Source of the DNA: Azolla caroliniana
Taxonomy: Eukaryota; Plantae; Polypodiophyta
Reading direction: 5' to 3'
NCBI GenBank assembly: GCA_043228905.1
Contig: JBHGNT010000012.1
Location: 12,090,001 to 12,154,000, forward strand
DNA: 64,000 nt
Shown here piece by piece: positions 5,267-60,900 of this stretch. The notes beneath the pieces are model-generated. The model searched no databases and was not told where the DNA came from. It was given only the letters and a program-made list of their open reading frames with translations. The position numbers and the translations under genes are program-made. How positions within the stretch are numbered: the stretch's first letter is position 1; each line of letters begins with the position of its first letter.

Positions 5267-5970
5267 TGTCGTAGTGTATTCCACACACTACGTGAAAACC
5301 ATAAAATAATATATCCGAATTTAGATACATATAAATAAATAAATAATATGTCAAAATATTTATCACGTGCATAGGGCAAGATTCAAACCCTACACCTCCA
5401 CGTAGATAAACTTCAACTTTACCATTGAAATAACTTATCTTTAGTGTTATACATATAGATTTAATACGTATAAGACCTTTATTTACACATACCTTTATTA
5501 AAAGGTAAAAATCATGTATTCTTTAGGGTGTGAATATTTTATTTACACGTGACATTAAAAGTGACTCACGCACATCTAGCGTGCATGAGCCCTATACTTA
5601 GGAAATGACAAAGCATCACATGCACATTTAGTGTGCATGGACACTTTTTGTGAAAAAGCATGAAGCCATGCTTAGCCTCTTCCATCTTTATATAAGGAGG
5701 AGAGAAATATGTATAAGGTTGTTGATTAATATACAAGGATTGATCAATCTATTATATTCGTGGGATTCACGAATTTGGCCATCTAAATTACTCTTATAAT
5801 CTAAATATTGTTTTAAATACACTAAACTCATGGGATTCACGAGATTGCTATCTTACTTCTCTTTCCACTGTTCATAACTAGCCTTAAGTTGTATTCCTCT
5901 TCCTCCTAGTAAAAAACCTTGGCGGTTCCCACCCGACTCACGCAACGATCCGGAGCCGAAAGGCACGACA
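5267..5970 (+). repeat. A1 3' LTR (704 bp)
   Basis: TGTCGT...ACGACA termini, preceded by GGAGGGGGCGAG, TATA-like near 5690, followed by CCGG and resumption of a family B integrase. Confidence 0.9.
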
Positions 5971-15389: not shown

Positions 15390-15462
15390 GGGGATGTAGC
15401 TCCCGTGGTAGAGCGATTGCTTTTCATGGAAGAGGTACGGGGATCGATACCCTGCATCTCCA
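15390..15462 (+). pseudogene. tRNA-Ala-derived pseudogene (anticodon position reads TTC)
   Basis: GGGGATGTAGCTC...GGTAGAGC...GAGGTACGGGGATCGATACCCTGCATCTCCA has the plant tRNA-Ala body, 73 nt, followed by TTTTT; anticodon stem mispaired. Confidence 0.85.
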
Positions 15463-15621
15463 CTTTTTATCAAATTACGAATTAATCATGGAAATACGAA
15501 GTGGAAGAGTCTTATATTTTTGGATTTGAATACACATCAAATCTAGACGAACTCGGAAGGGTCGTGATCGATAGAGAGAGTGACATTGTACTGCAAACAA
15601 TTTTGCTAGATCAGAAGGGTT

Positions 15622-15684
15622 GTGAAGGTAGCTCAAATGGCAGAGCATTCGCTTAAGATGCGAGATCGATATCCCGCATCTCCA
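15622..15684 (+). pseudogene. Second tRNA-Ala pseudogene with ~10-nt deletion of variable loop and T-stem
   Basis: TAGCTCAAATGGCAGAGC-TTCGCTTAAGATGCGAG-ATCGATATCCCGCATCTCCA. Confidence 0.8.
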
Positions 15685-16326
15685 AATTTGTATCTCTATA
15701 AATTAAAGAATTGAAGGCCTAATGGTTCTAGTGGACCAGACTCTTCTGGATTGTGGATGTACCAACTCGGTATTTTAGTGGGAGAAGTAATGCCCAAATG
15801 GGTCAATAGGTTCAGATGAAACCATGCCTCGGCCCACACACTTGAACCCCTTTTCCGAAATAATGCATGACAACGAATCGATGGAAGTAAGTCACAAAGG
15901 TGGCTAACGGCCCCACCCCGCTACAATCATTGTAGCAACCCCACCTACCTTGTATATTCACTATAATTATATTCACTATATGCACAAAGTATTTAACTGC
16001 ATGTGCATGCATAGTACCCCAGAAAACAAGTTCATATTCCTTCCCAACACCAACTAGCATTAAGGTTCACTCAAGAAGAATGGCAGGAACCTACAATCGA
16101 GGCACCCCAAGCAACACTCTCTCAACCTCTGCATAGAACACACGACTTGAGAGCGGGAGTCGCTGACAACCACCGCTCAGTCGTTGGTACAAGGCACTGA
16201 TGATGACTTCACCATCTGTGGACAGAGCAAGCCACTGCCCGGAGGATTGGTTAATGAGCACCGTCAGCCGACTAAACCTCGCAGCAATATTCGGGACGAG
16301 ACCCAGGAACTCTTAAAGGAGACAAG

Positions 16327-19300
16327 TGTCATGAAGACATACATCTTGGCTTATCAAGAGTCGAACCCACAACTTCTTGGTCTATGTGATGAACCTTTAA
16401 CCATTGTAATAACATATGTGATGTGTAATTATAATAATTATATTTTTAGTTATTACAAGATATTTGGAATATTCTAGAACATTCTTGAATATTTCATGAT
16501 TATATTTATTATCATAAATATCTAAAATATTCTAGAACATTCTAGAATACTCCATAAAGATCTATAAATAGGTGTTTATACATTCATCACAACTCATTCG
16601 GTTCAACACCTGTCTTTAGCACTTAGCCTACTCTTTGTAACCTTCTTTTCTCATTATATAATATCCTTTCCATTTCCTGTCTTATCTCTCTCTCTCTCTC
16701 TCTCTAGTCACGACAATTTGAACCAAATATTTCTTTTTCCTCTTCCAATAACCCTAGCAAGCTTTATTCTCTTTCCTTCTTTCTTTTTCCCTCTAAGTTA
16801 TGGAGTCCATCCGCAAGCAAGAATTTATGTGTGTCCTTTCTGAGCTCGACATGCTCACGACTAAGTTTGTGGCATTAGAGGAGGAAAATCAAAGGCTACT
16901 CGGGGATCTACAACACATGAGTACCGAGAAAGCTCATCAATATGAGGAGTTATCACAATGGGTTCATCAACTCGAGGCTACTATATTAGCATTACAAGAA
17001 CAAGCGGCGGGGGTTCAAAACTCCCCAAGGGAACCAAAGATTAGCCTTCCTGCCAAGTTTGATGGTACACGATCTCTGTTTTGAGGTTTCCTGAATCAAG
17101 TCCATTTGGTGATTCAGTTACATCCCAATCGGTACCCAATTGATGCTGGTTGTGTGGGATTAGTAGGAACCTTGCTAAGCGGTACAACATTAGCATGGTT
17201 TGCACCACTTCTCAAGAAGAAATCACTATTGTTGGAGGATTTTGAGGCATTCATAAAGGAGTTTCAAGCTAGTTTTGGAGACACCGATAGCACTAGGACG
17301 ACAATAAACAAGGTTCGAAGACCCCGACAAGGAGATCATCCTGCTTCAACTTACGCAACATATTTCCGTCTCTTGGCATGCGACATCCCTTGGGATGAGA
17401 CTTAATGGATCAATTCCGTCAAGGTTTGCGTAACGATGTCAAAGATCTTCTTCTTACTTTTCACGAAGATCCGAAGTCTCTTACAGAGGCAATTAGTCGA
17501 GCTGTGCAATGTGATAATCACCTATTTGAGCGACGTTCTGAACGCCAACAAATGTTACGGCGCCAACCGGAACAGACGTACATTTCAATAGTCACAACGC
17601 AGTCACAAGTTCCCAGACCCGTTATGAGGGATGGTCCCACTCCGATGGAAATAGAGTCAACACAACATCGAGGGCCCTTATCAGATGCTGAGCAACAACG
17701 ACGTCGAGTGCATCGCATATGCCTATATTGTGGTGGTCCAGGACATATAGCCATGAATTGTCCACATAAACCCAAATGTCAAGTATACCAAGTAAGTGCA
17801 CATGAAAACCCTACCTCGAGTTCTACTATCACTTCTAATAACTTAAGTAAGCCTAATAGCTCATGCCATGAGAATCCATTTGGTGTTTTGAGCCAATTAG
17901 AGGATGTGTTAAACGAATAAGTCTGGCCAAAATAGGAGCCATTTGGTTGGACCATCCTAGATATGTAGAGTCAGTACCTAGTTGTGCTTCCATTTCATCA
18001 AATCAAGTTAGTAGAGTTTTTTTTGCACAAGTCGAGCTTAACACATCTACAGGTCATTGAGTCCTAACCTCTGCCCACCTAGATTCCGGAGCCAATTCTT
18101 TTTTCATGGATCACGAGTTTGCATTGACCCAAAACATCCTCTTGAATAAGCTCCCGAACCTAGTAGTTGTGGGAGTCATCGATGGTCACCCTATAGCATC
18201 AGGTGATATAGTCGAAGAGTCTGGACCAATTTGTGTAGTCCTAGGTAATTTGGCTAGTGTCATCTCATTCAACATCATTAGTAGTCTAGAGCATTCCCTA
18301 GTTCTTGGTCTTCCTTGGTTTCAATTACATAACCCAACTATTTATTGGAGAAAAAGAACAATTGAAAAGGTCACGGTACAGTCAGAGTCACTTGAAACTC
18401 CAACAAAGGACCTGGGATCCCACATGATCTCAACAATTTCTATACATTAGTTACGTGAGGATGGAAGGAAAGAAGACATGTTTGTGTTCGCGGTGTTAAC
18501 AACTCCTTCATCTAGCTCACAAGAGTTGGGGGTCCAACTACCAAAGAAGTATATAGAATTCTCCGATGTGTTCGATAAGGTGAAGGCTAATAGACTACTA
18601 GAGCATCGACCATATGATGGCCTGATTGATTTGCAGGCAGGAAAAGAGCCTCCACGGGGGCCAATTTATAACCCACGGAGTTAGAGGTTCTTAGAGAATA
18701 TATCGATGAGAACCTGGAAAATGGTTTTATCCAACATTCAAGATCTCCTCCTGGTGCACCCATCTTTTTCGTTAACAAGAAAGATGGCACACTTCGTATG
18801 GTCATGGATTATCGGGGCTTGAATAAAGTGACTATTTGAAACTAATATGCTCTACCATTTATCTCAAGACTTGTGGAACGCCTCAGTGGAGCAAAATATT
18901 TCACGAAGTTAGATCTTTGAGGTGCCTACAACCTTGATCGAATTTGTCCTGGGGATGAATGGAATATTGCTTTCCGCACTCGCTATGGCCATTTTGAGTA
19001 TACAATGATGCCATTTGGTCTCACGAATGCACCGTTAGTTTTCCAATATATGGCGAATGACATTTTTCGGGAATTCCTTGATATCTTCATGATAGTTTAC
19101 CTAGATGATATCTTGATCTACTCAAAAACACAAGAGGAGCATGAGATACACGTTCGCCAAGTTTTGCAGCGGTTGTGAGAGTATGGTCTCTATGAAAAAT
19201 TGGAGAAGTGACGCGAAGATATCGACCATTTATATGGAGTACATAGGCGAACTTTGCAATTGAGGGTTTAAAGCAAGTGTTTAAATCTGCACCAATTTTA

Positions 19301-20349: not shown

Positions 20350-23300
20350 ACTTGAACCCATGACTTTATGTTACATGGTTCAAGCTCTTGACCATTAGAC
20401 TATATGTTGTAATATGAAGGATTTTATTTTCATTTAAGTTTTACTATAAAAAATTAATGTATATTCTAGATTTCTCTGGAACAATCTAGAAACTTCAGGA
20501 ATAATCCTGAGAACACTCTATAAAAGGAGGCACAAGCCATTATTTCGAACCAAATCGGTTCAATGCCAGTCTTAAGCCTCCTAGCTACTATTGTATATAT
20601 TTTCTTAACATAATATATATCTTTTGTTACAATCATTCTCTCTCTCTCTCTCTCTCTCACTCACTCTTTCCTTCACTCGATAGTTCTACACCTCCCTTAG
20701 TACTAATCCTCATCTTTTAGTACTAATTCCTTCTCTGTCTTAGGATTGTTCCTGACAATACTTCTCTGTCTTAGTATTGTTCATGACAGTTTGAACCGAT
20801 TTGCTCTCCTTCCTTCTCTTCCATATCTTCTTCCTTCTCACTCGCTTCATACTAATATCTTATTCCTCTTTTCTCTCATACTTTGGCCACTGTTAGCGCT
20901 CAAGAATATCAATCCGTTTCTCGGAGTTGCAATGCTTGAAAGAGAAGTTGATCTCATTGGAACAAGAAAATCAACGATTGTTGGGGGAGCTTCAACAAAT
21001 CTCCTTAGAGAAGCAGTAGACGCAACAACGACATGGGGAACTAGCGTTACGTGTGCAATAGCTCGAAGCAACGTAATGATGTCAAGGATTTACTCTTGAA
21101 CTTCCCCAAAGAACCAAAGTAATCGATAGAAGCAATCAGTCGCGCGGTAAGATGTGACAACCGTCTTTGCGAAGGATGTTCGGAACGTCAGTTCCAGATG
21201 CCAAGGGTAAGATTAGAGCCCACCTACGCCCGAGTGGTAGCAAAACCATTTCCAAGGGAGTCATATAATGCGTCTCCAGTGAATACTCCAACTCTGATGG
21301 AAATTGACACTATCCGTCATCGCGGACCATTACCGGAAGAAGAAAAGCAGCGACGCCGAGCAAATCGACTATGTCTTCATTGCGGTGGACCATGGCATAT
21401 TGCAGTGAAATGTCTTCATATGCCAAGAAGACACGTAAACCAAATAGTTGCTAGTTCTAATTGTACTAAGGCTGAGTCTATTTCTGTAGGAATATATGAT
21501 AGTCCTAATAGTTTTAATAGCCCAAATCTATCGAACAAATTTGATGTCCTTAGTCAGTTAGAAGAATAGTTAAACAACTAAGTCCAGCCAAAATAGGACC
21601 CGTTTGGTTGGACAGCCCTAGATATGTGCAACCCATTAGTGGTTTCATTCCCTCTAAGCAAGTTAGCAATGTGTTCTTAGCCCAAGTAACAGTTAGTCCT
21701 AAAAATATCTCTCCAGTACATGTGTCAGCAATCCTAGATTCTAGGAATTATTCTTGCTTCATGGATAGGAATTTTTCCCAAGGTCATCAGATATCCGTAA
21801 GAAAACTCCCGTGTCCAGCCTCTGTAGTAGTCATTGATGGTCGAGTCATTGCTTCTGGAAATATCATAGAAGAGTCGGAGCCCGTTAATATTGTCCTAGA
21901 TAATTTAGCGTGTGTAGTATCCTTTAATATAATTAGTATCCCAAAACATTCCATTGTTTTGGGATTACCATGTTTTGAATTACATAACCCAGACTTAGAT
22001 TGGAGAACAAGAGAAATCCGGTATTGGCAAACCTGAGGATCTACTCATAAGATTGCAACAATTTCACTACATTTGTGGCGTGAGGAAGGACGCAAGGAAG
22101 AAATGTTTCTCTTCGCAGTATTGGTAAAACCCTCCAACACCACTAAAGAGGAGTCCACCGTTCAACTTCTAGAGAAGTATCGTCATTATGCCGATGTGTT
22201 CGATAAAGTACAAGCCATTACCCTTGCTCACCATCGACCGTATGATTGCCCCATCGATTTATAACCAGGAAAAGAGCCACCATGGGGACTTATCTAAAAT
22301 TTGTCACTAACCGAGCTAGAAGTCCTTCGAGCCTATATAGAGGAGAATTTGGCAAATGGTTTTATTTGACATTCGAAATCTCTAACCTGAGCACCCATTT
22401 TCTTCATCAAGGAAAAGATGGATCAGTTCGTCTCATCATTGATTACCGTGGCTTTAATAAGGTCCCCATCAGGAATAGGTGCAAGGTTCCTCGGAAACAT
22501 CGACTTATGAGGAGCAGATAACCTTTTACGGATCCGACAAGGAGATTAATGGAAGACCGCGTTTCACAGCAGATATGGGCACTTCGAGTATACGGTCATG
22601 CCATTCGGCCTTACTAATGCGCCAACAGTCTTTTAGCACATGGCAAATGATATATTCCGAGATCTCTTGGATGTTTGGTTGATCATCTATTTGGAAGATC
22701 TACTGGTTTTGTCGAAGACCCAAGAAGAGCATGATTCTCATGTACTATTGGTACTAAAACGACTTCGAGAACATGGTCTTTATGCAAAACTAGAACAATG
22801 TAGTTTCGAGTGCGACCAGGTAAAATTTCTGGGCTATGTCATTTCCTCGAAAGGCATCTCCATGGATCCAGCTAAGGTCAAAGCGGTGGTAGAGTGGAAG
22901 ACTCCGCATTCGTTGCGAGATGTGCAATGCCTTTTAGGCTTTGCCAATTTCTACCACAAGTTTATACAAGATTACTCAAAGCTTGTTCTTCCTCACACAT
23001 AGCTTAGCAGGAGGGGACAATCGTTCGTTTGGTCTGAAGAAGCACACATGGATTTTGAGAGTCTTAAGAAGGCATTTACATCAGCTCCTATTCTAGCTCA
23101 TGTTGATCCGGAAAAACCATTCATCATCGAAGCAGACGCGTCAGAATTTGTCTTTGGTAGCATTTTGTCACAACAATGTGATGATGAAAAGCTACATCCC
23201 GTGGGTTTCCACTCACGCAAGTTTGACGCCACCGAAATCAACTATGAAATTCATGATAGTATAGCTAAAATCGTTGCCGGCCACAACCGGTTGTACGTGT

Positions 23301-25651: not shown

Positions 25652-26041
25652 TGTTGTCTGTCTGGCCGGACTAGCCTCAACACAGGTGTCTATCCGACAC
25701 TTCTCCTAAGGGGTGGTAAGGGTTGGATGCTAGGTTACACGCGTAAGATGATTACAATTAAGCACAGACGGTAAACAATACGAGATACAGATAAACACGC
25801 AATAATTACTATTGTATTACTTCCGTCAAAACCCTTTACAAATCATCGGATCCTTTTATAGGCATCCGGCAAGGTTACAATCGGTGCGCTTAGGCAACCG
25901 ACATCCGAATCGGTCCGGATCCGGATCGGTACAACTGTACCGAATCCGTCCCTCGGAATAATAATTCTACTATTATTTACTTCCTATTATCCGATCCGAT
26001 TCCGCCTTCCCACTTGTCCTTGCTCTTCTGACCGGCCAACA
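25652..26041 (-). repeat. B2 3' LTR
   Basis: TGTTG...CAACA; matches 35392-35781 at 389/390 by eye. Confidence 0.97.
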
Positions 26042-26043
26042 CA

Positions 26044-26085
26044 TGGCACGCCCGTGGGAAAGTGCCTTGCACTTCGAATCCACTC
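26044..26085 (-). other. tRNA-3'-half-like motif in place of the PPT (antisense PBS)
   Basis: Element sense GTGGATTCGAA-GTGCAAGGCAC-TTTCCCACGGGCGTGCCA-TG then LTR; no purine tract. Confidence 0.8.
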
Positions 26086-26091
26086 CCGGCC

Positions 26092-28980
26092 TCAGTCTTC
26101 CTCCAAAATATCGAGCACACTCTGCTCGATGGTGTCAAGTGGTGCTTCTTCCTCCTGTTCCTGTTCCTTGCCTGCCTGGTCTCCGACCTCCGGTTGGGTA
26201 GGCTGTTCCGTAAAAATTTGCTGCTCCGGCTCTGCTTGATTCTGTGGTGCCGGTGCTTCCTCACCGCTTCGTCCGAGTTCTTCCTGTTCTCCCTCCGTTC
26301 CTGGCTCTGTTCTGTTACCGGTGTCGCTTTCTCCGGTCTCGACTGGTCGACTCGATATGCCTCCTTCCTCTGCTTTGGTGTCTTCCGGTCTCAGCTCTTC
26401 TTCTTCTCCGGCATCGGTCTGCTCCTGCTCTTCTTCAAGTTCGTCTTCGGGTATTCCTCGTCGGGGTTGTTCGGTGTCGGTTGGTTCATCTTCAGCCGGT
26501 CGCTCTCCCTCACTTATCGTGATTGGCGTCGTTCTTCCCTTAGCTTCCTGTCGTAACCGGTCCTGCTCGTATCTCTCCAACTCCAACTGAGTTGCGAGCT
26601 GCCCGTCATCCAACCTCTCTACCAACCCTCGGATTTCTTTGAGGTGTTCTTCTGCTAAAGTGTAGAAATCCTCCGACAATTCTTCCCGAATGGCGACGAT
26701 ACTTTCTTCATCCATCTTGTAGAACTTGTCACCGGTCTTCCTCCGATTCTCGGCATCCGCTCGGAGTGTCTGCAGCTCGGCTGCCTGTTGTGACCACTCC
26801 TTCCATAGCTTTTCCGTACTTTCGTTGATGCTTGCCTGAGCTCGGGTACTCCATCCTGACATGATGAGCTTGATCCGGTCAACCCCTGCCTTAGCATGCG
26901 CATAAGCTTCCTGCTTTTCCTTCCTTGGCCGTTTTATAATGTCGGCCATTATCTGAGCCTGGGCATCGTAATCTGCTTTCTGCTTTTCATAGGTACTCTG
27001 CAGTTTGCTGATCGTGAAGGTCGATTTTTCCTTTTCTTCATTCCTGATCTTGGTCAGGTCCAGCTTTTCCCGCCTTAGCGCCTCTAATTCCTTCCTTCTC
27101 TCCGTTGCTTGGGCTCTTTCCACCGACAATGCTTCCTTGTTGGCACTGACCTCATCCATCGCCTTAGCCAAGTCTAATCGGGTCTCTTTGAGCTGCACTT
27201 TCAGCTTCTCTATTTGCCGGTCGTAGTCTGCTGCCCGTTTTTTGTTGTCGGACTCGGCCTGCTTGTGATCTCGGTAGAGACGGTCGAAGTCCTCCGTCTT
27301 CTGCTTCAGGCGTCGGTTTGCCTGAGCTCTTAACCGATCGTCCTGGTCCTTCTGTTGTTGGAGTTCTTCCTGCAGTCGTTCTATCTCTTGCTCGGCATGT
27401 CGACGTAGTCGGTCCTTCTCCTTTTGCAGCTTCTCTTTTTCTTCTTGCAGTCGGTCATAAGCGGCTCGACCTTTCCGGAGGCCTTCTTCCATTTTTCGTC
27501 TGTCGTCCTCCACCGCTTTCCGCTGCTCCCTTTCTCTTTCCCTTAATGCCTCCTGAGCTTTTAACTCCTCTCGTAAGGTTTCTATTATTTTTTCGGTCTC
27601 AGGGCCGGTTTGCAAGGCTACCGGTTCTGGTTGCTTCCTTGTTGTCCCGACCGGCTCGGTGACAACTTGTGCTTGTTGAATTCCTTCCCTTGCCTGCAAC
27701 AGCTCCCCTTGCATTTCCTCGATCTGTGTTCGGAGCGCGACCAACTCCTGAGTTGTTGTATGCGTCAGCTGTTGCCTACACGTTTCTTCTTTCTCTAACT
27801 GGTCCGCTACTCCCGATAACTGCTCCAAAAGCCATCTCAGCCATTGTGGCTTTGTTCTTCCGGTGTCGGGGTGGCCTTGCTCACTTAACTCAGGCTGATT
27901 TTCCGGCCTCTTCTCTGGCTCCGGCTCCGGCGCTTGTTCCTTCTTCTCTAGGATGACCGGTTTTCTGAAGTCCAGCCCACCCGGTGTCGGTGCTGCTTCC
28001 CTGAGTACGGGTTCCGGTGCTGTTTCCGCCTCAGCTACTGGAGATGGTCCTTGCGCCCTCTGCTGAGTTCTGTCCACTGCTGGAGCCGGTCCTTTCGCCC
28101 GTTTCTCCCGACCTTGTCTTGCTGGGAGTCTTACCAGTGGTTCGGATGAGTCTTCTGTTTCAGCTTCCTCCTCCGGTGCGGTTACCAGACGGACCTTTTG
28201 TATAAAGACCTCTGGTTCCGGTTCCGGCCGTCGCAACGTTATATGGATTGGTTTGCGCGCTACCGGTTCCTCCTCGGCCGATTTCCGTTTGCCTTTACCT
28301 ACCGGTTTTGCCTTTGTTGCCGGTTCCTGTTGTTGTCGGGATGATCCTTCCCCCTGCTGTTCTGCTTCTTGCTGGGTCCATCCGGGGGTGTGTTTCTCCA
28401 AGATCTGTCGGCGCTTTGTGACCTTTTTCGGTGTCATCTCCTGCCGACCTCTTTTCTTTTGTGTGATGGGGAGCACCGGTGGGACTAACACCGTTAGCCA
28501 TTGTGCTATCCCGGCCCATGGCTTTTTTCCTTCCACAAGATTTTTGATGGCCTCCTTCAATCCTTCGGTTATGAAATGGAGCCAGTCTATTTGTAAGCCT
28601 TCGTACGCTGCTATTAAGAACGCTGCCCGGTACTTGGCTATGGCCGGGGGACGGGGATTCACGAATCCGTATTCCATCATGGCGCGGGCCACTTCTCCGA
28701 ACAGCAGGTTTTCTCCGCCCTGCGTTCGATACGCCTTGCTGCTGATAGAGTACTCCCCGAAATATTCGAACAGGATTTCACTTGAAGGGTTTTCGATTGT
28801 TTGAAGTCCTCCCGCTTTTATTCCCGTGAGCGCCTGCACCGCTCCTTCCGTGACTTCTGATATATCGATCGATGCTACCGCCTGCTCTGGTTCTGCGTGT
28901 GGTGGAGCGTCGGTGATCCGCAGCAATCCTTTTAACCCGTTCTCCCTCATCCATTGGCGTGCCTCTTCCGACAGTACCAT
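26092..28980 (-). CDS. B2 extra ORF3: ~960-aa protein with globular N-domain, basic NLS-like patch, long coiled coil and acidic tail (frame open to 29244)
   Basis: Uninterrupted ORF; homology with B1 begins at MVLSEEARQW; TATA-like CTATATAAG at 29116-29124 upstream. Confidence 0.88.
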   Translation of the reverse strand: MVLSEEARQWMRENGLKGLLRITDAPPHAEPEQAVASIDISEVTEGAVQALTGIKAGGLQTIENPSSEILFEYFGEYSISSKAYRTQGGENLLFGEVARAMMEYGFVNPRPPAIAKYRAAFLIAAYEGLQIDWLHFITEGLKEAIKNLVEGKKPWAGIAQWLTVLVPPVLPITQKKRGRQEMTPKKVTKRRQILEKHTPGWTQQEAEQQGEGSSRQQQEPATKAKPVGKGKRKSAEEEPVARKPIHITLRRPEPEPEVFIQKVRLVTAPEEEAETEDSSEPLVRLPARQGREKRAKGPAPAVDRTQQRAQGPSPVAEAETAPEPVLREAAPTPGGLDFRKPVILEKKEQAPEPEPEKRPENQPELSEQGHPDTGRTKPQWLRWLLEQLSGVADQLEKEETCRQQLTHTTTQELVALRTQIEEMQGELLQAREGIQQAQVVTEPVGTTRKQPEPVALQTGPETEKIIETLREELKAQEALREREREQRKAVEDDRRKMEEGLRKGRAAYDRLQEEKEKLQKEKDRLRRHAEQEIERLQEELQQQKDQDDRLRAQANRRLKQKTEDFDRLYRDHKQAESDNKKRAADYDRQIEKLKVQLKETRLDLAKAMDEVSANKEALSVERAQATERRKELEALRREKLDLTKIRNEEKEKSTFTISKLQSTYEKQKADYDAQAQIMADIIKRPRKEKQEAYAHAKAGVDRIKLIMSGWSTRAQASINESTEKLWKEWSQQAAELQTLRADAENRRKTGDKFYKMDEESIVAIREELSEDFYTLAEEHLKEIRGLVERLDDGQLATQLELERYEQDRLRQEAKGRTTPITISEGERPAEDEPTDTEQPRRGIPEDELEEEQEQTDAGEEEELRPEDTKAEEGGISSRPVETGESDTGNRTEPGTEGEQEELGRSGEEAPAPQNQAEPEQQIFTEQPTQPEVGDQAGKEQEQEEEAPLDTIEQSVLDILEED

Positions 28981-29390
28981 TGTTTCGAATTCTTCTTCTG
29001 CTACCTGTTGTTCGGGATCGCGCTGTGTGTGCTCTGTGCGTCGGGTCGCTCTTCTGTGCTTCTGCGCCTGTATGTAGGAAAATTCGTAAAAAGTGAGCCC
29101 TTCGCAGGCCTGTGTCTTATATAGTGGGTCGTGCCTCGAGCCGCCCTTTTTCGTTTCCCGCGCATGTTCCTCTCCCGCCATAATTAGTATGTCCTTTCTT
29201 GTTTGCCGCGTGTGAGTGCCCACGTTCCATGCTTTAAATAGCAAGTATGCGCACGTCCTTCTTTAATGCATGGCGCCTCTTCCTTGCATGGTGCCGCTCC
29301 CACCTCTTGTGATCTCCCCATCATTACTATGATTCGCGTCGATTTTGCCCACGTCTTCCTTTTTTTTTTTTTTTTTTTTTTTGGACCACG

Positions 29391-32300
29391 TCATTTGCTG
29401 GTCCCCCCCGATTTGTTCGGGTCGGTTCGTGTGGGTACCGGATCCTTCTGTCGGTTTTCCGGGATAGTCTTTGTCAGTATCGGTGTCGGTTCTTCCTCGG
29501 TCCGAATATCTTCAGCAGTGTCCGTCGGTGTCGGTTCCTCATCTTGCCGGATTTCCGGGTTTTGGTTGAACGGGTTGGCTGGCATATTTCCCTTATACGG
29601 CTTTAGCCGAAATCCATTTGCCCACTTGCCGATGACATCTCCAGACAACGTGCCGAGCTGATACGACCCATTGTACTCCTTGGTGATCCAGAACGGTCCG
29701 GTCCATCGAAACCGCAACTTTCCCGGCATGTTCCCCATCCGTGTCTGGAATAGTAGTACCGGTTTCCCGACTTCGAACTCCTTTTCATTGCCACGTCGGT
29801 GTCGATCCACGAAAGCTTTTCTCCTCCTTTGCTCCAGTTCGAGTTGTAGTAAGCTAGCTATTCGGTTTTCTTCTAATTCCAACAACGTCGCCAGCCGGAT
29901 TCGTTCGGACTCGTTCTCACTTAAGCGCTCCTTCACCTAAATCTGTAAGCTTGGGATCTGGAACTCTACCGGCATGACCGCTTCTAACCCGAATGCTAGT
30001 CGGAACGGGGTTGTCCGGATGCTGGTTTTGTACGTTGTTCGGTACGCCCATAGCGCGCTTTGCAATTTCGTATCCCAGTCGGTCCGGTTCTCGTTGACGA
30101 TTTTTCGTAGGATGTTCTGCAAAGTTTTGTTCGTTGATTCCGCTAGTCCATTGGCTTGAGGGTAGTAGGGAGTACTCTTTTTATGTACCACCGCGTAAAA
30201 TGACGTCAGGCTTTCTACTACCTGCCCGAGAAAATGTCCTCCTTGGTCACTTATAAGCTCGATCGGGCATCCATACCGGCACCATATGCACTCGTACAGA
30301 AACTTTGCCGTGGACGCGGCCGTGTTGTCCCGTAAGGCCTTTGCTTCTACCCATTTGGTGCAATAGTCGGTCACCACTATGACATACCGATTTCCGGTTC
30401 GCATTGCCGGTGGTTTGAAGGGACCGACAAAGTCCAACCCCCACTTTTGTAACGGTTCTAAGGGCAAGACCGGGTGGTGTGGCATCCGGGCCTGCTCTGT
30501 GGGTTGGCCCAGTCGTTGACACAAATCGCATTCTCTGCTATACTTCACGACATCTTTTAGGGTGGTCGGCCACCATAGTCTGCTCTGCCATATTTTCCGA
30601 GCGGTTGCGTCGCCAGCATAATGCCCGCCGGCAATTCCACAGTGGGCTTCCCTGAGGATTAGATCCTTCTCATCGCTCCGCACTGCTCGTCTCCAGATGC
30701 CATCTGCCCCCTTGTGATAGAGGGTGTCTCCAACCAAGCAGAAATATCTACTTCTTACTGCTACCCTTTTCCTTTCATCGCGGTCCATGTTCTCCGGGGG
30801 AACTCCGGTGCTCAGGAACTGATGCATCTCAGTTAGCCATGTGTCTTCATCGGCTACGGTTGTATCCGTTGCTGGTTTCGTCGTGATCCAGAACAATTCG
30901 GCGTCGGGAAACTCATCCTGGACGCCGTCCCCTGCTTCTCCGGATTCGAGTCTGCTTAGGTAGTCCGCTACCGCATGCTGCGCCCCGGGTCGGTGGAAAA
31001 TGTCGAATTCGAATTCCTGTAGCAGCAGTGTCCACTGTGCAATTTTTCCCGTTAGGGATGCCTTCGAGACCAGGTAGAGTAGTGCCGAATGGTCGACATG
31101 GAAGGAAAACTTCCTTCCGAGCAGATAGTGCCTGTACTTTGTGACACTATACACCATTCCCAATGCCTCGCGTTCCGTTGTAGAGTAATTCCGTTCGGCT
31201 TTTGAGAGTTTCCGGCTTGCGTAGTACACCGGTCGGTACCATTTCAGCTCCGTGAGTTGCATCAGAACGCTGCCGATTGCTACGTCCGACGCGTCGACGA
31301 AGACGTGAAAGCTTTTACTCCAATCCGGCGGTTGCACCACCGGGGCTTGCGACAGCATAACCTTCAACGCTTTGTAGGATTCCTCCTCCGTCTCCGCCCA
31401 TAGGAAGGGTACCCTATGTACGGCGGTATGTAACGGTGTAGCGAAGTTTGCGAGGTGCCGTATCATCCGGCTATGCCACCTTATTTGGCCCAGGAACCGG
31501 CTTAAAGCCTTTGCGTTACTTGGTGCTGGTGCCTCGAGAATCGCCTTGACTTTATCCGGATCTACCGTGATTCCTTCTACCGTGATTCCTTCCTTACTCA
31601 CCACGTGCCCTAGTAAGTTGCCGCTTGCCACTCCAAAGACGCACTTGGCCGGGTTCAGGCTCAATCGGTACTCGCGGCACTTCTCCAAGCACAGCCGGAG
31701 GTGATCGAGATGCTCTCCGTGCCGGCTGTAGACCGCGAAATCGTCAAGGAAGACCTGCATAAAACCGGGGATATATTCCCCGAAAATTTCCATTATTATC
31801 CTTTGAAAGGTCGCTGGAGCCGTCTTTAGTCCGAACATCATCACGACCGCGACGAACACTCCCCATTCCGTCACGAACGTTGTCTTCTCCTGGTCGGCCG
31901 GGTTCATTCGTATTTGGTTGTAGCCGCTAAATCCATCCAGGAAGCTGTAAACTTCGTGGCCGGCTACCACATCTAACACCCCGTCCGTAAATGGTAGTGG
32001 AAACGCATCGGTCACAGTTGCGGCATTTAGTTTTCGGTAGTCCACGCATACCCGGATTTTGCCGTTCTTTTTCGGGACCACCACTATCAGACTCAGCCAG
32101 GTTGCCTGCTTGACCGGTCGGATAAATCCGACCCGGAGGAGATTATCAATTTCCTCCTTCACCTTTGCCGCATAATTCGGATTCATCCGGTACCTGCGTT
32201 GAGCAATCGGTTTCGCGTCCGTACTTAGGTGAATTTGGTGCTGATAGAGCTGGGGGTCCAGCCCTCGCATGTCTTCGTACGACCACGCGAACACATCCTT

Positions 32301-35339: not shown

Positions 35340-35375
35340 CCATCCCCCGGTTGTCCTCTGCACTTTGCAGGAATC

Positions 35376-35385
35376 GTGGTCGCCA
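35376..35385 (-). other. B2 primer-binding site TGGCGACCAC (likely tRNA-Arg UCG)
   Basis: 6 nt inside the 5' LTR end; same decamer at 11598; tRNA identity from memory of plant tRNA-Arg ending GTGGTCG-CCA. Confidence 0.75.
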
Positions 35386-35391
35386 AAATAG

Positions 35392-36730: not shown

Positions 36731-38984
36731 AGGGCAATTCGATGCTCAAGACTATAGATTATGTTAAAGGAAACTACACATCCTAAATCACCTAAGAGTA
36801 TGTGTATTGGCTTAGACTCTTCGAATATCTTCCTGGAAGCTATGGGATGTCCATCAATCACAACTACGGAAAGTGGACAAGGAAGTGTATGCAAGGATAA
36901 TTGGTGTTTTTGGGCAAAATCTCTATCCATGAAACAAGAATTGGCTCCAGTATCTAAGAGGGCTTGGACTTGAAGTTGACAACTCGGTGTCCTAACTTGT
37001 ACTTGGGCTGAGAAGACTCTACTAATATGCTTGGAAGAAATGGAACCCACACTAGGTTGTACATATCTAGGGTTGTCCAACCAAATGGCTCCTATTTTGG
37101 CCGGACTTATTCATTTGACTCCTCTTCTAATTGGCTTAGGACTTCAAAGTTATTGGAAAAGGGTGGATTATTAATAATATTGGATTCACTAACTACTTGT
37201 AAAATGTTGGACTCAATTTTATTGTCATAGTGAATTTGATTTACTTGACGTCTCGGTCTACGGGAGCAATGAATGACTATATGTATTGGACCTCCACAAT
37301 ATAAGCACAAACGGTTTGCTCGGTGTCGTTGCTTCTCTTCGCCTGACAACAGTCATCGTTGTTGAGTGATATCGATCTCCATGGGTGTAGGACTATCCAT
37401 TGGGATTGGACTACGTGTTTGCTTTGGAGTTGGAGCAAGGCTATATGTTTGCCTTGGGGATGATTGTGCCATTATTGATGCATAAGTTGGTGTGAATCTT
37501 GATCTTGTTATTTGTTGTTGTTGCTCACATCGACGCTCAGAAAGGCGATTATCACTTGGACCGTGAAGTCGAAACAAGGAGTGCGGACGGTAGGCCATCG
37601 GTTGGTGCAATATGTAAGATGTAGAGTTATAGAGAAAAGGTTTAGGGTTTAGGAATTAGGGTTTGAGTCTTGGTTTTGGTTTTGGTTTAGGGTTAGGGTT
37701 TAAGAATTAGGGTTTAGTGTTTGTTTCGGGCTTAGGGTTTAGAGGATAAAAGGGTTTAGTGCAAGAGGGGAAAAAGTGAAAAGTAACACCAAGAATAATT
37801 TGAGCACACCCAAATTATTTGACAAACTTGGTGTAAGTGAGGCATAATAAGAGATAGAGGAAGGGGGGAGAGAGAGAGACGAGGGATTAATCACTAACAT
37901 TAAAACTAGAAACAAGTTAAAACATAACCATAAGCTAAATAGTCTAGATTAGAAAGAGGGAGAGATTAAGAAGGAGACTAATTTTCATTAAGAAAAAGGA
38001 AAAATTACAATACGAATCTTGTTGATAGTTGTTCTCGCCCCATCAGTATCTCCGAAACAAGCCTTAAATTCTTTGATAAATTCCTCAAAAGTATTCAGTA
38101 GAGGAGAATTTATCTCTAGCAATGGAACAAACCACGACAACACTATGCCAGTCAATAAGGTGCTCACTAAACCGACTCGTGATGCATCTATCAAATAACG
38201 TGTGGGATGCATTTGAATCACCAACTGTACTTGATTCAAGAAACCTCGGAAATGCGCCCTCGAACCATCAAATGCGTCCTTGACCTTCGACCCTTTTTTG
38301 TTGTAACACTACGATTGTCGGCTCTAACTGTTGAACCCATCACGTGCTCTCCTCTTATTGTTGCTACTTCTCTAGAGTAACCTTTTGTAGATACCCAAGT
38401 AGACGTTGATTCTCTACTTCAAGAGATGCGAACTTTGATTTAAGATTCTCCATTTCTGCAACAAGGGTGAGATATTCTTCTGATTTAATGGCGGCCATGG
38501 TTTCATGATGGTTATAGAGGAGGATGAGAGAGAGAGAGAGAGAGAGAGAGAGGGAATTCGAATCAAACTATCAGAACCAAGAATAAATGATAGAGCGATG
38601 GAAGAAGAATATAAGGGAACACGAGAAGAAAGGAACGAAATGCTAAGAGAAGAATGGGTGGATTAAGATAGAGAAAGAAAGAGAATGGATACAAGATATG
38701 TAATGAGAGCTAAAGAATGGTGTTGATTCTAATTGATTTGAGAATACATGTATGCCCTTATTTCTAGGTTCCTATGGAATATCTTAGAGATTTCTATAAT
38801 GTTCTAGAATGTTCTAGGACATTCTAGAACATTGTAGAATGATCTAGAGTTTTTACAATAATCAATCTAATACAAAAAGTAGCTTTTATCCTCTCATATG
38901 ACAATAAACTATCTTAATGGTTGAGGTTTTCAATTATCGATTACAAGGTCCGGGTGATGTCATAATGGTCATGTCTTCATGACA
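36731..38984 (-). mobile_element. Family C copy C3 (LTR 38569-38984, gag, protease), degenerate
   Basis: LLDTGANSCFMD, CLYCGG, PMEIDI, MHPTRY; LTR start TGTCATGAAGACAT matches 16327. Confidence 0.88.
37564..38010. other. Unrelated insert in C3 gag with degenerate TTTAGGG/telobox repeats
   Basis: Cluster of TAGGGTT(T) at 37638-37760 replacing part of gag. Confidence 0.55.
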
Positions 38985-53466: not shown

Positions 53467-54115
53467 TGTCGTGACGATTTTCGGCTACGGTGTGAAACCG
53501 AGTGAGACGAATAAACCAAGGATGTGCAACATTGCACATACACTTAGCAAATAAGCCTCCTAAGGCCTAGTGGCACTTGAGTTCATACAGAGGGGTGCAA
53601 GCAAGGTTTGAACCTTGCACCTCTAAGATACAAGATAATTGCCTTACCACTAGGACAACTATCATATAGTGTAGATTTTATGTATTTACTTTTCATATAT
53701 GAATTATAGATGAAACAACCATTAGAAAACCATGTGCACAAAACCATGGTTCTAAACCCATGGTTTGTGCATGACATAAACAAAACCGTGTGCACAAAAC
53801 CATGGTTTTAGCCCATGCTTTTGTGCATGTCACAAGCATGGAAAGACCTATAAAAGCCTCGAGTTGGGCTTGTGTAAGGGGGGCTCAATATGTGATATCA
53901 CCAACACCATTATCATCAATATAATTATATTTGTCTTTATCTTCTTCATATTTTTCTACTTCTCAAGTGTACAATCTTTCTTCTTCTCAAAGTAAACCAA
54001 TTTCATCTAATCTTACATTGATCGTCATCTCTTCGATAATTCTGCAAACATCCTCCCCAGTCCAAGACCCCGGTGGTCGCTCGAGTAGCACACGCACGCG
54101 CGAATCTTCGCGACA
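53467..54115 (+). mobile_element. Family A solo LTR A6 nested in the Copia LTR
   Basis: TGTCGTG...CGCGACA with perfect ACGT/ACGT TSD; start matches A7 U3. Confidence 0.9.
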
Positions 54116-56868: not shown

Positions 56869-57158
56869 TGTCATGATATGGCAAGACTTGAACCCATAAC
56901 CTTATGCTACATGGGTCGAGCTCTTGACCATTAGACTATACATTGTAATATATAGAATATATTTATATTTTATTATAGAAAATTGATGTATATTCCAGAT
57001 TTCTCTAGAACATTCTAGAAACTTCAAGAGTACTCCTGAGAACACTATAAAAGGAGGCACAAGGCATTATTTCGAACCAAATCGGTTCAACACCAGTCTT
57101 AACCCTCCTAGCTACTATTGTATACTCTCTTCACATAATATATATCTTTTATCATCAT

Positions 57159-57190
<32 letters not shown>

Positions 57191-57991
57191 CTTCTCTCGA
57201 GAGTTCTACACCTCTCTTAGTACTAATCCTCATCTTTTAGTACTAATTCCTTCTCTGTCTTAGTACTCATCCTTACAATTTGAACCGATTTTTCCGTCCT
57301 CCTTCCGTCTCCTCCTTTCCTCCTCTTCCTTTTATATTCTTACATATCCCCCTTTTCCGGTCTTCTTTTCAGTTTCCCACATACTCTTACCCCTTTCTTC
57401 CTTTCATACTAATCCTCTTATTCTCCCTAGTAAAATGGAAACTATTAGCGCTCAGGAATACCAATCTGTTTTCTCGGAGCTCCAGTGCTTAAAGGAGAAA
57501 TTTGTAGCACTAGAACAAGAAAATCACCATTTGTTGGGGGATCTTCAACAAATAGCGCTGGAAAAACAACAACCACACGGGGAGCTGATCTTATGTATGC
57601 AACAACTCGAAGCAACCATCGTATCGATGCAACAACAAGGACCCGGAACACAAGGGATTCATAAAGAACCCAAGATCGTCCTTCCCATGAAATTCGATGG
57701 AACGTGATCGCAGTTTAGAGGGTTCCTTAATCAAGTATGACTAGTTATTCAAATGCATCCTTCCCGATATCCCACCGATGCATCACGAGTGGGTTTAGTA
57801 GGCACGTTGTTAAGTGGCTCAGCGTTGGCATGGTTCGCTCCGTTGTTAGAAAAAGAATCTCCATTACTAAACAATTTTGAAGAATTTATAAGTGAGTTTA
57901 AAGCCTGTTTTGGAGATACTGACATCATAAGGACTGCAATTAACAAAATCTGGCGATTACGTCAAGGCGATCGTCCAGCCTCCGCATACGG
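56869..57991 (+). mobile_element. Family C copy C4 (LTR 56869-57277, gag 5' part), interrupted by A7
   Basis: TGTCATG start, self-priming PBS, METISAQEY...EPKIVLPMKFDG, LAWFAPLL. Confidence 0.9.
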
Positions 57992-60900
57992 TGTCGTGAA
58001 GATCCGTCACTACGCGCGGATCGTGAGGCGGAACCGCCGGGGTTCTGGACCAGAAGGATTTAGAGTCGATACAAGCTTTGGCGAGAAAGTACTTAAGATA
58101 GATTGGGAAAGAGAGAAGTTGAGATTACACGATTGATTTGATAACAAATTTCTTCCTCTTAATTTTCATAAAAAAAACCGTGTTTTTTCTCCTCCCCCTT
58201 CCCTCTTTTATAAATGCTCTCATGCATATGATGCATGTGAGGGTACAAGACATGCATAAATTGCATGTTTGCCATTTGGCGCTTAAGTATTACATGTGGT
58301 GCATGCTAACCATGTCACTCATTTTAGCACTCATGTATGAGAATTTACATGTAAAAGTACTATGATAGAAATATAATTTCAACTAAATAGCATGGCTTAA
58401 TGGTAAGCCAATTGACTCCTAACATGGAGGTGCAAGGTTCGAATCCATACTTGCCCTCCTTGTATATGTAACTATGTATATATATTTATATATTTATTTA
58501 TCTAGTCGCCGGATCCGGTGCCTCGTCGGTTACCGGTGCCGCCGCCGGATGCCGTTGGTTACCGGTGCCTCGCCGGATACCGGATGCTGCCGCCGGATAC
58601 CCTTTACGAGTAGCTAACCACCTCCACTCTTAGTTCAAGTTACCTTGAACTCTCTATGCTCCACACATAGACACAAAGATAATATCTTTTGCTCCACCTT
58701 ATATATGATGAGAGCCGTATTTGTCGTGCCTATGTGGGATATCTCACAATTTTCTCTTTTCTTTTCACAAACTTTATATCCTCATATCTTGACATTTAGT
58801 TGTCCATTTCTCGTGTAATAAAGTGCATTCGAAACCTCCATCATTTTGTACTTAGATATTAAATATGTTATCTTCACAATTATTGTATTACGTGATTCAT
58901 ACTCAATTTCGTACGTTTTATGGGATTTTCACACTATTGCCGAAAATCTTCACGACATCCACCCCCACCAAACCGCACGTCCTCCGGTACGTGCCAAGAA
59001 GAGAAGAAGTGAGATTTCGGCTACGATGATCAATTAGATTCCTCCATGTCTTCATTTTCATCCAGCCTATTATGTTCATCGTCGAGGTAATCGAGGTCAG
59101 GATTCTTGTCTTGTCTTTTCTTGAAAAGCTTTACTCTTTTTCCCGCAATGGGTACAACCAACCTTGATCCGTCTAGTTCCGCAAGGTGGTATGTGGCATT
59201 ATCGTTGGCACTTGTCACCACATACGGCCCGAACCATCTTCTTGCGAACTTCCTTGTTGTACTATGTTGATTGTCAAGGGTGTTGTCGTAAACCAAAACC
59301 CAATCCCCTTCTTCAATCTTCTTGGGACGAAGTCGATGCGTGTTGTCGAACCGAACTTTGTTCTTTACTCGGGCTGCCTTCATCATCTTTCACACTTTTT
59401 CTAAATTTTCAGGTCTTCTTTCAAGTTGCCTTATCCGCGCCGCTAATAACTCTTCTCGGCTCATCTCGTTCTCCCACGGTATCGCTACCCATGAGGCGAT
59501 CGTCCTTTCGATGGGCATAATCGTCTTTTGTCCATACATAAGCTCCGTCGGCATATACCCTGTCACCGAGCTATGTGTCGTTCTATCGGCCCACAAGGCA
59601 TAGGGTAATAGTCGTGGCCAATTCCCGACTCCACCGTTGCATGCCCGTACGATGGCTTTAACGATAGGTCCATGCCCTCGCTCGATCTTCCCATTTGCTT
59701 CCGGATTGTAGGCAGTCGTGAGGGAGAGCTTCACGCCTAGTCTTTCGAAGAGCTTCATCGCTTCGTGCGCGTCCAACTCCCCTCGGTCGGCCACTATCTT
59801 CCCTACACATCCATATCGGCAAACAACATCTTCAAGTAAAAATTTACAAACGGCTGAAGTCGTCTTATTTGTCAAGGCTCGTCCTTCCACTTGCGAGCGC
59901 TAAGTACTTCATTTGTCCCACTCCCATTGGCATCGAGACCAGATCCACCATCCATTTGAAGTGAATGGTGAGTGGGTATGTCGGCTTTAACTCATCACGA
60001 TGACGTATATTTGAATATATTTGGCAAGTTTCACATGTCGACACGAAATGGAGTACATCTTTGTACATGCTTGGCCACCAGTACTTCTCCTTCAATTTTT
60101 CGAACGTCGCCCATGTTCCTCTATGACCTGCCCAAGCACTCTCGTGGAATTCGGTCATCAGCGTCTCTTGCTCTTCTTTCTTTACCACCACTCGACGTGG
60201 TATTCCTGTCCTTCTTTTTGGGTGTCGCCAAAGGAATCCTCCCTTCAAGAAGTATCGATAAGCTTTCTTTCGGATTCGTAGGGCCTCCTCCTTTGTCAAC
60301 GAAGCATCTGTCGTCAATGTTCTTAGGAATCTACCGATGAGTAACCATTCTCCTTCGTACTCGTTCTCGTTGAAGGCGTGGAGGGTTTGCGAGTCCTAGT
60401 CTTCCGCCGACAATCGAGCCATCTTGAAGAAGTTGAGGGCGACATCTTCATCTTCCGAAACCATGTTACTTCCATTTGAAAATCTTGCCCTCGACAGCAT
60501 GTCAGCCATGGCGTTCTTCTTCCCTGCGATGTGACGGATCTCTGGGTTTAAAGACTTGATGTAGGCGATCCACCTTAGCATAGCAAGATCTGGGGTCGCA
60601 CATCCCGAGACCATTCCGAGAATTGGGAGACAATCTGTCTCTATTATCACTTATGACCCGATCAGGTAATCTTTGTCCGTCTTCACTGCCGACACAATAC
60701 CCCAAAGTTCCCGCTTGACTTGGGCATATCTTTGTTGTTGTTCGCTGAGAACCTTTGCTCCGAACCGGACGGCATATCGCGCATTATCTTCACCTTCTTG
60801 ATTGATGACCCACCCGATTCCGGTTGGGCTCATATCTACGGTCACGTAAATTGGTTTCCCTTCGGCATAGTCGGCCTTCCTTAGTGCCGGAGCTTCAAGA

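What the first reader, a model, noticed from the sequence alone, without database searches (positions are those of the whole stretch)
5363..58455. Antisense tRNA-like Pol III promoter modules in the U3 of two unrelated Gypsy families
Seen: seven LTRs carry an A-box (T-R-x-x-x-x-A-R-T-G-G-T) and, in six of them, a B-box (GGTTYRA) about 44-45 nt apart. They always point away from the LTR TATA box. Family A: 5363-5436(-), 53596-53662(-), 58388-58455(+). Family C: 16348-16416(-), 20350-20406(-), 56877-56945(-), and 38909-38955(+) with a decayed B-box. The boxes and some D-stems are kept while anticodon and acceptor regions are not. Known: A/B boxes bind TFIIIC, tDNAs can act as chromatin barriers, and Cassandra TRIMs carry 5S-derived Pol III promoters in their LTRs. 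Inference: convergent capture of a Pol III module as an insulator or anti-silencing device, or as a source of outward antisense RNA. Other family A LTRs here appear to lack it.
Basis: partly seen in the sequence, partly recalled or inferred. Interest (0 to 1): 0.8.

Follow-up and report, generated by a model that had tools for sequence, protein, structure and literature searches.

The report
Backward tRNA promoters inside retrotransposon LTRs
Two unrelated families of protein-coding jumping genes in a non-seed plant, likely a moss, carry a worn tRNA-type promoter facing outward in their end repeats, and its two protein-binding boxes have outlasted the DNA around them, so it likely recruits the tRNA-gene transcription factor to help keep the element's own promoter open.

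Summary
A profile search finds exactly the seven modules; six score at least 15/16, against 0.1 expected in shuffles. Family A is Phygy-like and family C Tcn1-like. A module-independent search gave 81 further family C LTRs: 59 carry the antisense module, 1 scores on the sense strand. Across four subfamilies, 14 of 16 box positions keep one base against 11 of 37 others (p=1e-4; textbook positions alone p=0.018). In family A the module is nearly the only alignable U3 stretch. There is no SINE tail, target duplication or depth spike, and no tRNA fold. Against a strict role: one Phygy subfamily shares a broken B-box, five Phygy LTRs and some Tcn1-like LTRs lack the module, and orientation rests on two or three independent captures. 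Binding and transcription are untested. Best reading: a selected, dispensable TFIIIC site acting as a boundary or open-chromatin element (0.45); selected for some function about 0.8. It is the reverse of Helenus/Cassandra (sense, non-coding TRIMs). The scan had noted antisense tRNA-like units inside fungal Gypsy elements, but my look-ups did not return this LTR module.

The parts
5363..5436 (-). Module A1: A-box starting 5432, B-box 43 nt on with C56 changed to T
   Evidence: same C56T in the related LTR in L028
5267..5970 (+). Phygy-type 3' LTR A1, after a purine tract; TATA near 5690
   Evidence: 76% identical LTR in L028
53596..53662 (-). Module A2: intact A- and B-box (16/16), spacing 43
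53467..54115 (+). Phygy-type solo LTR A2 with a 4-bp NCGN target duplication, inserted in a Copia LTR; TATA near 53849
   Evidence: empty-site joints skipping 653-654 nt
58388..58455 (+). Module A3: intact boxes (16/16), spacing 43
57992..58957 (-). Phygy-type 3' LTR A3 of the minus-strand element that runs off the window end
16348..16416 (-). Module C1 (gamma subfamily), 16/16, spacing 44, ending 31 nt from the LTR 5' end
16327..16715 (+). Tcn1-type 5' LTR C1: module, heat-shock-element-like array (16467-16547), TATA at 16562
20350..20406 (-). Module C2 (alpha subfamily), 15/16; LTR cut just after the B-box
20350..20803 (+). Tcn1-type 5' LTR C2 (5'-truncated, ends 20788); TATA 20518; self-priming site at 20791 complementary to the R motif
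56877..56945 (-). Module C3 (alpha subfamily), 16/16, ending 16 nt from the LTR 5' end
56869..57291 (+). Tcn1-type 5' LTR C3 (ends about 57277) inserted in a Copia pol; TATA 57045; self-priming site at 57280
38909..38955 (+). Module C4: A-box intact, B-box mostly deleted (13/16)
38570..38984 (-). Tcn1-type 5' LTR C4 (inner end approximate)

Best explanation
The module is a tRNA-derived internal promoter (A-box plus B-box), fixed in antisense orientation in U3 of a Tcn1-like and a Phygy-like lineage, that was likely kept by selection as a TFIIIC landing site and would act as a boundary or open-chromatin element shielding the element's own Pol II promoter. Shown: position, orientation, inheritance with the LTR, box-specific conservation between subfamilies, loss of the tRNA cloverleaf. 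Inferred: TFIIIC binds the boxes; TFIIIB would load on the AT-rich 50 nt on the TATA side of the A-box, next to the heat-shock-like array in family C; any Pol III would run away from the Pol II start rather than through it; the complex would slow heterochromatin spreading and read-through from the neighbouring nested elements into which these families insert. The module is helpful, not essential: some lineages lack it or carry a damaged B-box.
For: (1) 59 of 81 independently fetched family C LTRs score >=14/16 antisense, 1 of 81 sense. (2) Four subfamilies (27, 19, 12, 8 copies): commonest base identical at 14 of 16 box positions, both differences being A/G at purine positions, against 11 of 37 spacer and free positions (Fisher p=1.2e-4), 12 of 45 upstream, 2 of 12 downstream. 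With recalled textbook positions only: 11 of 15 against 14 of 38, p=0.018, and 59 of 60 subfamily states fit the consensus. Window copies C1, C2 and C4 are only 62-66% identical in gag/protease DNA. (3) A-B spacing is 43 or 44 in 58 of 62 copies while the B-box-to-LTR-end distance runs 11-36 nt and the A-box-to-TATA distance about 110-170 nt. (4) Family A modules align at z=5.0, 7.7, 19.4 while 8 of 9 other U3/R comparisons give z<=1.1; pol DNA identity is 70%. (5) B-box CpG decay: the 7 copies with C56T each need their own change on the tree, whereas the tolerated G57A forms a supported 4-copy clade. (6) Position 59, the D-stem positions and the spacer vary freely. (7) 75-86% AT in the 50 nt upstream of the A-box. 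(8) TFIIIB/TFIIIC limit silencing spread in yeast (PMC9540200, passages) and Pol III complexes block intergenic Pol II read-through (PMC4228148, abstract).
Against: No binding, transcription or chromatin data. A1 and its 76%-identical relative in L028 share C56T, so that subfamily probably multiplied with a damaged B-box. Five Phygy LTR segments in the window lack the module; L029 lacks it and L036, L037, L087 have it partly deleted. 22 of 81 family C LTRs score under 14. Within subfamilies the boxes decay like the spacer (0.097 and 0.123 against 0.124), as expected of dead copies but giving no sign of selection on inserted copies. The subfamilies are related, so the Fisher tests overstate independence; the 16-position score was partly fitted to these sequences. 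The gamma subfamily has T at G10. A Pol III complex in the 3' LTR would stand in the path of the element's own transcript (inference from PMC4228148). The whole LTR is AT-rich. The plant barrier review's passages give tRNA/TFIIIC barriers for yeast and animals only.
Confidence: 0.45

Rival explanations
1. The module is a working Pol III gene and its antisense RNA is the point: a 60-120 nt RNA complementary to U3 (and, from the 3' LTR, to the purine tract) that tunes the element's RNA or feeds small-RNA pathways, like the Pol III cassettes in foamy-virus U3.
For: Same box conservation as above. T4 right after the B-box in 7 of 7 beta and 3 of 4 delta copies; T4 in the purine-tract complement of 5 of 5 gamma 3' LTRs. 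Alpha and beta modules fold into a long hairpin (z -2.0 to -4.8). D- and T-stem pairing stays above chance. Foamy viruses make Pol III miRNAs from U3 (PMC3993851, passages).
Against: Neither terminator nor fold is shared: alpha 0 of 22 and gamma 0 of 15 copies have T4 inside the LTR; gamma, L010, L057 and L064 modules fold no better than shuffles (z -1.5 to +0.7). Antisense RNA to its own genome would be expected to invite silencing (inference).
Confidence: 0.2
2. Neutral relic: a tRNA gene, SINE or tRNA-derived miniature element landed once in an ancestral LTR of each lineage and has been copied along without function.
For: tRNA-like repeats do insert into these LTRs: L069 has an insert with two facing tRNA-like modules inside the microsatellite of a family C LTR. 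The spacer is also partly kept (15-17 of 33 positions, gamma versus each other subfamily). Module-less sister lineages exist and one subfamily shares C56T. Two or three antisense events can be chance.
Against: Boxes are kept far better than the spacer between subfamilies; the length inside the module is nearly fixed while both flanks change; in family A nearly nothing else in U3 aligns. No tail or target duplication above chance in 6 of 6 tested window copies.
Confidence: 0.2
3. The module works on the sense strand as RNA: in the genomic RNA it is complementary to the D- and T-arms of a host tRNA and anchors one near the 3' end, like the U3 half of the bipartite primer site of yeast Ty3.
For: Predicts both the antisense orientation and the U3 position; Ty3 uses U3 to pair with the T and D arms of its primer (PMC5371799, passages). 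Tight tRNA-like spacing and tolerance of G57A (a wobble) also fit. The gamma B-box region closely matches the tRNA-Arg gene in L034 (z 2.0-3.2 in four of five gamma copies).
Against: Family C primes itself (12-13 nt R-to-primer-site complement in C2 and C3), so needs no primer tRNA. The Phygy primer site at 41325 implies a primer with T59 and A62, whereas the three A modules have A59 and C or T at 62. Position 59 and the D-stem positions differ between subfamilies, which would break pairing to one fixed tRNA.
Confidence: 0.12

Closest known systems
Helenus / TRIMp3 (Kojima 2024, PMC10886601; main text parts 1-4 of 6, figure legends in passages, six supplement passages), with Cassandra and Ajax
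   Same: tRNA-derived sequence inside an LTR, conserved mainly at boxes A and B, not a working tRNA; one family in Selaginella.
   Different: Helenus are short non-coding TRIMs whose module is taken to be the element's own promoter; in the supplement the B-box motif occurs 120 times forward and 7 times reversed. Here the hosts are gag-pol elements with a separate TATA promoter and the module is antisense, upstream of that TATA. The paper expects autonomous partners to use Pol II and not to share such LTR sequence; it also says 'not a few' Repbase LTRs hold tRNA-like pieces but analyses only TRIMs.
Pol III miRNA cassettes in foamy-virus U3 (PMC3993851, passages)
   Same: A/B-box Pol III units inside U3 of a coding LTR element that also has a Pol II promoter; dispensable in culture.
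   Different: Those make defined hairpin miRNAs with terminators; here no fold or terminator is shared across subfamilies and the unit is a single tRNA-spaced module on the antisense strand.
tDNA and ETC barriers of yeasts and animals (PMC9540200 passages; PMC4228148 abstract)
   Same: TFIIIC boxes next to a Pol II promoter, proposed to block silencing and read-through.
   Different: Those are host loci with measured activity; here the boxes travel with a transposon, in a plant, and activity is untested.
Ty3 bipartite primer-binding site (PMC5371799, passages)
   Same: U3 sequence complementary to tRNA T and D arms.
   Different: Ty3's segments match its own primer; family C has no tRNA primer and family A modules mismatch the primer implied by the Phygy primer site.
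Tcn1 chromoviruses and Phygy non-chromoviruses (PMC6317226 passages and supplement table; PMC2864245 passages)
   Same: Family C: self-priming, chromodomain. Family A: 4-bp NCGN target duplication, tRNA-type primer site.
   Different: The passages read describe no tRNA-like module in these LTRs; the large sequence supplements could not be read.

Membership tests
Helenus/TRIMp3 | tRNA-like sequence with conserved A and B boxes inside the LTR | tested here: met
Helenus/TRIMp3 | Non-coding TRIM, under about 1.3 kb | tested here: not met
   gag-pol remains follow or precede six of the seven LTRs; only L036 looks like a TRIM-sized derivative
Helenus/TRIMp3 | Module in sense orientation, able to transcribe the element | tested here: not met
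   antisense in 59 of 81 against 1 sense; Helenus supplement mostly forward
tRNA-derived SINE insertion | Own target duplication and tail | tested here: not met
   flanking repeats no longer than in shuffles in 6 of 6; no tail
tRNA-derived SINE insertion | Copies outnumber or occur apart from the host LTR | tested here: not met
   contig depth over the module is of the same order as the rest of the LTR; depth is only a rough measure
tRNA gene | Cloverleaf with acceptor and anticodon stems | tested here: not met
   no ARAGORN or Rfam hit; stems at chance
Type 2 Pol III promoter | A- and B-box consensus at workable spacing | tested here: met
   exceptions: A1 subfamily C56T, gamma G10T
Type 2 Pol III promoter | Upstream AT-rich region and CAA at -10 to -3 (PMC13578239, passages) | tested here: inconclusive
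   AT-rich but so is the LTR; CAA lies at tRNA positions +1 to +3 in three of four subfamilies, absent in gamma
Type 2 Pol III promoter | TFIIIC binding and Pol III transcription | not testable with these tools
   only contigs were available
tDNA/ETC barrier | Blocks silencing or read-through in a reporter | not testable with these tools
   needs experiment
Tcn1 chromovirus (family C) | Self-priming site | tested here: met
   12-13 nt complement in C2 and C3; C1 only partial
Tcn1 chromovirus (family C) | Chromodomain before the purine tract | tested here: met
   PF00385, E=4e-14, in L023; no family C 3' end lies in the window
Tcn1 chromovirus (family C) | RT/integrase tree placement; 5-bp target duplication | not tested
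   no reference set on hand
Phygy (family A) | 4-bp NCGN target duplication | tested here: met
   A2 and its empty site; table
Phygy (family A) | tRNA-Trp primer site; RT tree placement | tested here: inconclusive
   a tRNA-type primer site is at 41325 and looks like Trp by recall; no plant tRNA-Trp gene could be fetched; no tree against references

The most novel reading that the evidence does not exclude
Heterochromatin-dwelling plant retrotransposons have repeatedly captured an outward-facing tRNA promoter and use the host's essential TFIIIC/TFIIIB as a built-in, cis-acting anti-silencing wall around their LTR promoter: a transposon-borne tDNA barrier that the host cannot remove without harming tRNA synthesis, scattered in many thousands of copies across the genome.
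Probability: 0.35. Interest if true: 0.82.

Novelty: new variant of a known kind. Interest (0 to 1): 0.62.

Why it matters
Known small-RNA promoters in LTR retrotransposons drive tiny non-coding elements in the sense direction. Here coding elements of two distant Gypsy clades keep one backwards beside their normal promoter. If TFIIIC binds, this gives a natural test of whether tDNA-type barriers work in plants, offers a cis route by which elements that land in heterochromatin stay expressible, and means that a large share of the genome's TFIIIC sites are transposon-borne. Sister lineages with and without the module, and subfamilies with intact, CpG-free or broken B-boxes, are ready-made controls.

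Tried and rejected
No whole genome is held for this window, so no genome-wide LTR scan was possible. No RNA holder was listed; runs X17 and X21 are only guessed to be RNA and are contigs, so their coverage of the modules is not used as evidence. ARAGORN and Rfam found no tRNA in the modules. The family C LTR pattern gave 3 hits in viral contigs that were not examined further. Searches for Phygy integrase relatives in viral and prokaryote contigs found none, so family A rests on three window LTRs, one more in L028 and contig coverage. Two motif scans for the Phygy primer tRNA gene gave 2 non-tRNA hits and 0 hits, so the donor tRNA is unresolved; similarity to the tRNA-Arg gene in L034 is real for some modules but similar scores arise with tRNA-Ala. 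Origin by read-through of the element's own primer was considered and is not supported (mismatch at positions 59 and 62). Binomial tests of orientation over copies were rejected as meaningless because copies share descent. A first worry that the 53596 LTR was a Copia LTR was rejected: it is a solo family A LTR inside one. A conserved hairpin RNA was rejected as the common function. The protein search gave mostly unnamed metagenome hits; named ones among the 120 listed (Riccia, Ceratopteris, 52-62% identity) only point to non-seed plants.
Full report
Setting. The window is a nest of decayed plant LTR retrotransposons. The element clades and the few named protein hits point to a non-seed plant, likely a moss (inference).

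Observation. Scoring 7 A-box and 9 B-box positions at spacing 41-47 gives six hits at 15 or more, all cited modules, against 0.1 in 100 shuffles. A profile from natural copies returns exactly the seven. None is a tRNA by ARAGORN or Rfam. Mapped on a cloverleaf, family C subfamilies keep 2.6-3.5 of 4 D-stem and 3.5-4.0 of 5 T-stem pairs (chance 0.39 per pair; two T-stem pairs are part of the B-box) but only 1.0-1.6 of 5 anticodon and 2.3-3.3 of 7 acceptor pairs; a true tRNA-Arg gene in L034 scores 4, 5, 5 and 6.

The hosts. Family A LTRs (5267-5970, 53467-54115, 57992-58957) fit Phygy: A2 is a solo LTR with a 4-bp NCGN duplication and empty sites show in contigs, matching the Phygy row of Neumann et al. 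(PMC6317226, supplement table). Family C (16327, 20350, 56869, 38984) fits Tcn1: the start of R is complementary to the sequence just after the 5' LTR and a family C relative carries a chromodomain; Tcn1 is described as self-priming. I did not place either on a tree with references. In family C the order is LTR end, antisense module, AT-rich stretch, heat-shock-element-like array, TATA, R.

Is it part of the LTR or a SINE? Contigs of four runs laid on C3 give depth over the B-box and spacer of 0.75-1.0 million in X1, falling to 0.3 million at the A-box end, against up to 1.8 million elsewhere in U3/R and 10-25 thousand on the flank; loose ends gather at the LTR start and read like a purine tract. 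On A2 the module shows 55-172 thousand against up to 203 thousand elsewhere in the LTR, and it is covered in runs of three organism codes. Depth is rough, but there is no spike. Flanking direct repeats are no longer than in shuffles in 6 of 6 copies tested.

An unbiased sample. A pattern built from the heat-shock motif, TATA and R, with nothing from the module, found 104 metagenome loci. Eight were chance hits, 12 had under 200 nt upstream, 3 were duplicates; 81 remain. Of these 59 score 14 or more on the antisense strand and 47 score 15 or more; on the sense strand 1 and 0. Nearly all loci share one accession series and are probably one study, so they sample copies, not habitats.

Are the boxes selected? 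Clustering 85 LTRs (81 plus 4 from the window) on module-free sequence gave four subfamilies of 27, 19, 12 and 8; 19 copies fell outside and were left out. The commonest base is the same in all four at 14 of 16 box positions, the two exceptions being A/G at purine positions, against 11 of 37 spacer and free positions (p=1.2e-4), 12 of 45 upstream and 2 of 12 downstream. Because that score was partly fitted to these sequences I repeated it with textbook positions (recalled): 11 of 15 against 14 of 38, p=0.018; 59 of 60 states fit the consensus class. For comparison the 40 nt next to the TATA box agree at 24 of 40 (this stretch overlaps the search pattern). Three of the four subfamilies are close kin, so these p values are optimistic. 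Spacing is 43 or 44 in 58 of 62 well-scoring copies while both flanks change length. On a tree of 62 LTRs built without the module (those scoring 13 or more), the 7 copies with C56T are all single changes, while G57A (18 copies, 12 changes) includes a supported clade of four; the numbers are small. Within subfamilies boxes decay like the spacer. In family A the modules align at z=5.0 to 19.4 while 8 of 9 other U3/R comparisons do not; the exception is an AT-rich run beside the module in A1 and A3. The two module-bearing elements are 70% identical in pol and 66-67% identical to a module-less one.

Results against. A1 and a 76%-identical LTR in L028 share C56T, so this subfamily probably spread with a damaged B-box. 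Five Phygy LTR segments in the window have no module. L029 lacks it; L036, L037 and L087 have deletions. Twenty-two of 81 family C LTRs score under 14. Orientation rests on two or three independent captures (family A, family C, perhaps the different LTR in L064), which chance could give. Whether A and C captured independently is open: their similarity outside the boxes is no greater than to an unrelated tRNA pseudogene.

Mechanism. What is shared across lineages is the pair of boxes, their spacing, the orientation and the position upstream of the TATA box. What is not shared is the terminator (10 of 11 beta and delta copies have T4 right after the B-box; 0 of 37 alpha and gamma copies have one inside the LTR) and the fold (strong hairpin in alpha and beta, none in gamma). 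That pattern fits a DNA site read by TFIIIC better than a defined RNA. From the known assembly order (PMC13578239, passages) TFIIIB would sit on the AT-rich stretch between module and TATA, and Pol III would move away from the Pol II start. TFIIIB/TFIIIC hold back silencing in yeast (PMC9540200, passages) and block read-through (PMC4228148, abstract). Physcomitrium RLG1 has a chromodomain and is suggested to target heterochromatic islands (PMC7466625, passages), where such a wall would pay. All of this is inferred; the same complex in the 3' LTR could obstruct the element's own transcript. I give the boundary or open-chromatin role 0.45, a functional antisense RNA 0.2, a neutral relic 0.2 and a Ty3-like tRNA anchor on the genomic RNA 0.12. 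The anchor idea explains the orientation neatly (PMC5371799, passages) but family C needs no tRNA primer and family A modules mismatch the primer implied by the site at 41325.

Comparison and novelty. Helenus, Ajax and Cassandra are non-coding TRIMs with a sense promoter (PMC10886601, parts 1-4 of 6); this fails two of three membership features. Foamy viruses have Pol III miRNA units in U3 (PMC3993851, passages). Ten full-text searches were run; those aimed at this arrangement listed no paper describing an antisense tRNA promoter in the LTRs of coding plant retrotransposons. Subscription papers and Repbase notes are outside that library, Kojima mentions unanalysed LTRs with tRNA-like pieces, and the REXdb sequence supplements could not be read. 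Earlier scan notes gave no match by sequence; by words they gave antisense tRNA-like units inside fungal Gypsy elements, unchecked here. Verdict: real, probably selected, function unproven; a new variant of a known kind; interest 0.62.

Noticed in passing
window 25652-35781 (-), boundary near 26042: A near-intact Gypsy element with 99.7% identical LTRs, a 1830-aa gag-pol frame and a 1056-aa extra frame has, where the purine tract should be, a sense copy resembling the 3' end of the tRNA-Arg gene seen in L034; similar motifs near 11075 and 13520. Same feature as several earlier notes on this genome.
   Followed up: partly
window 15390-15462 (+) and about 15620-15690 (+): A tRNA-Ala-like pseudogene (Rfam 36.4 bits) with a T run after it, and by eye a second, more decayed remnant, 640-870 nt before the C1 insertion.
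   Followed up: no
window 16467-16547, 20489, 57008-57025, 38802; 79 of 85 family C LTRs: Arrays of nGAAn inverted repeats like heat-shock elements just upstream of the TATA box in family C, absent from family A (count biased by the search pattern). Suggests a heat-inducible lineage.
   Followed up: partly
L069 about 900-1130: A roughly 230-nt insert inside the (TC)n run of a family C LTR with short inverted ends and two tRNA-like A/B modules facing each other; looks like a microsatellite-targeting miniature element.
   Followed up: partly
L036 and L081: TRIM-sized family C derivative (about 170 nt between LTRs, high coverage); its 3' LTR keeps both boxes but has lost about 16 nt of spacer.
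   Followed up: partly
L057 about 546-613; L064 about 1685-1749: Antisense modules in two further LTR types: a self-priming LTR without heat-shock arrays, and an LTR with heat-shock arrays but a different R region.
   Followed up: partly
window 58520-58957: The 5' part of LTR A3 holds short CCGG-rich tandem repeats and a second TATA-like stretch near 58700; the LTR may be a composite.
   Followed up: no
L034 1944-2019 (-): An intact tRNA-Arg(TCT) gene about 930 nt from a family C LTR.
   Followed up: partly
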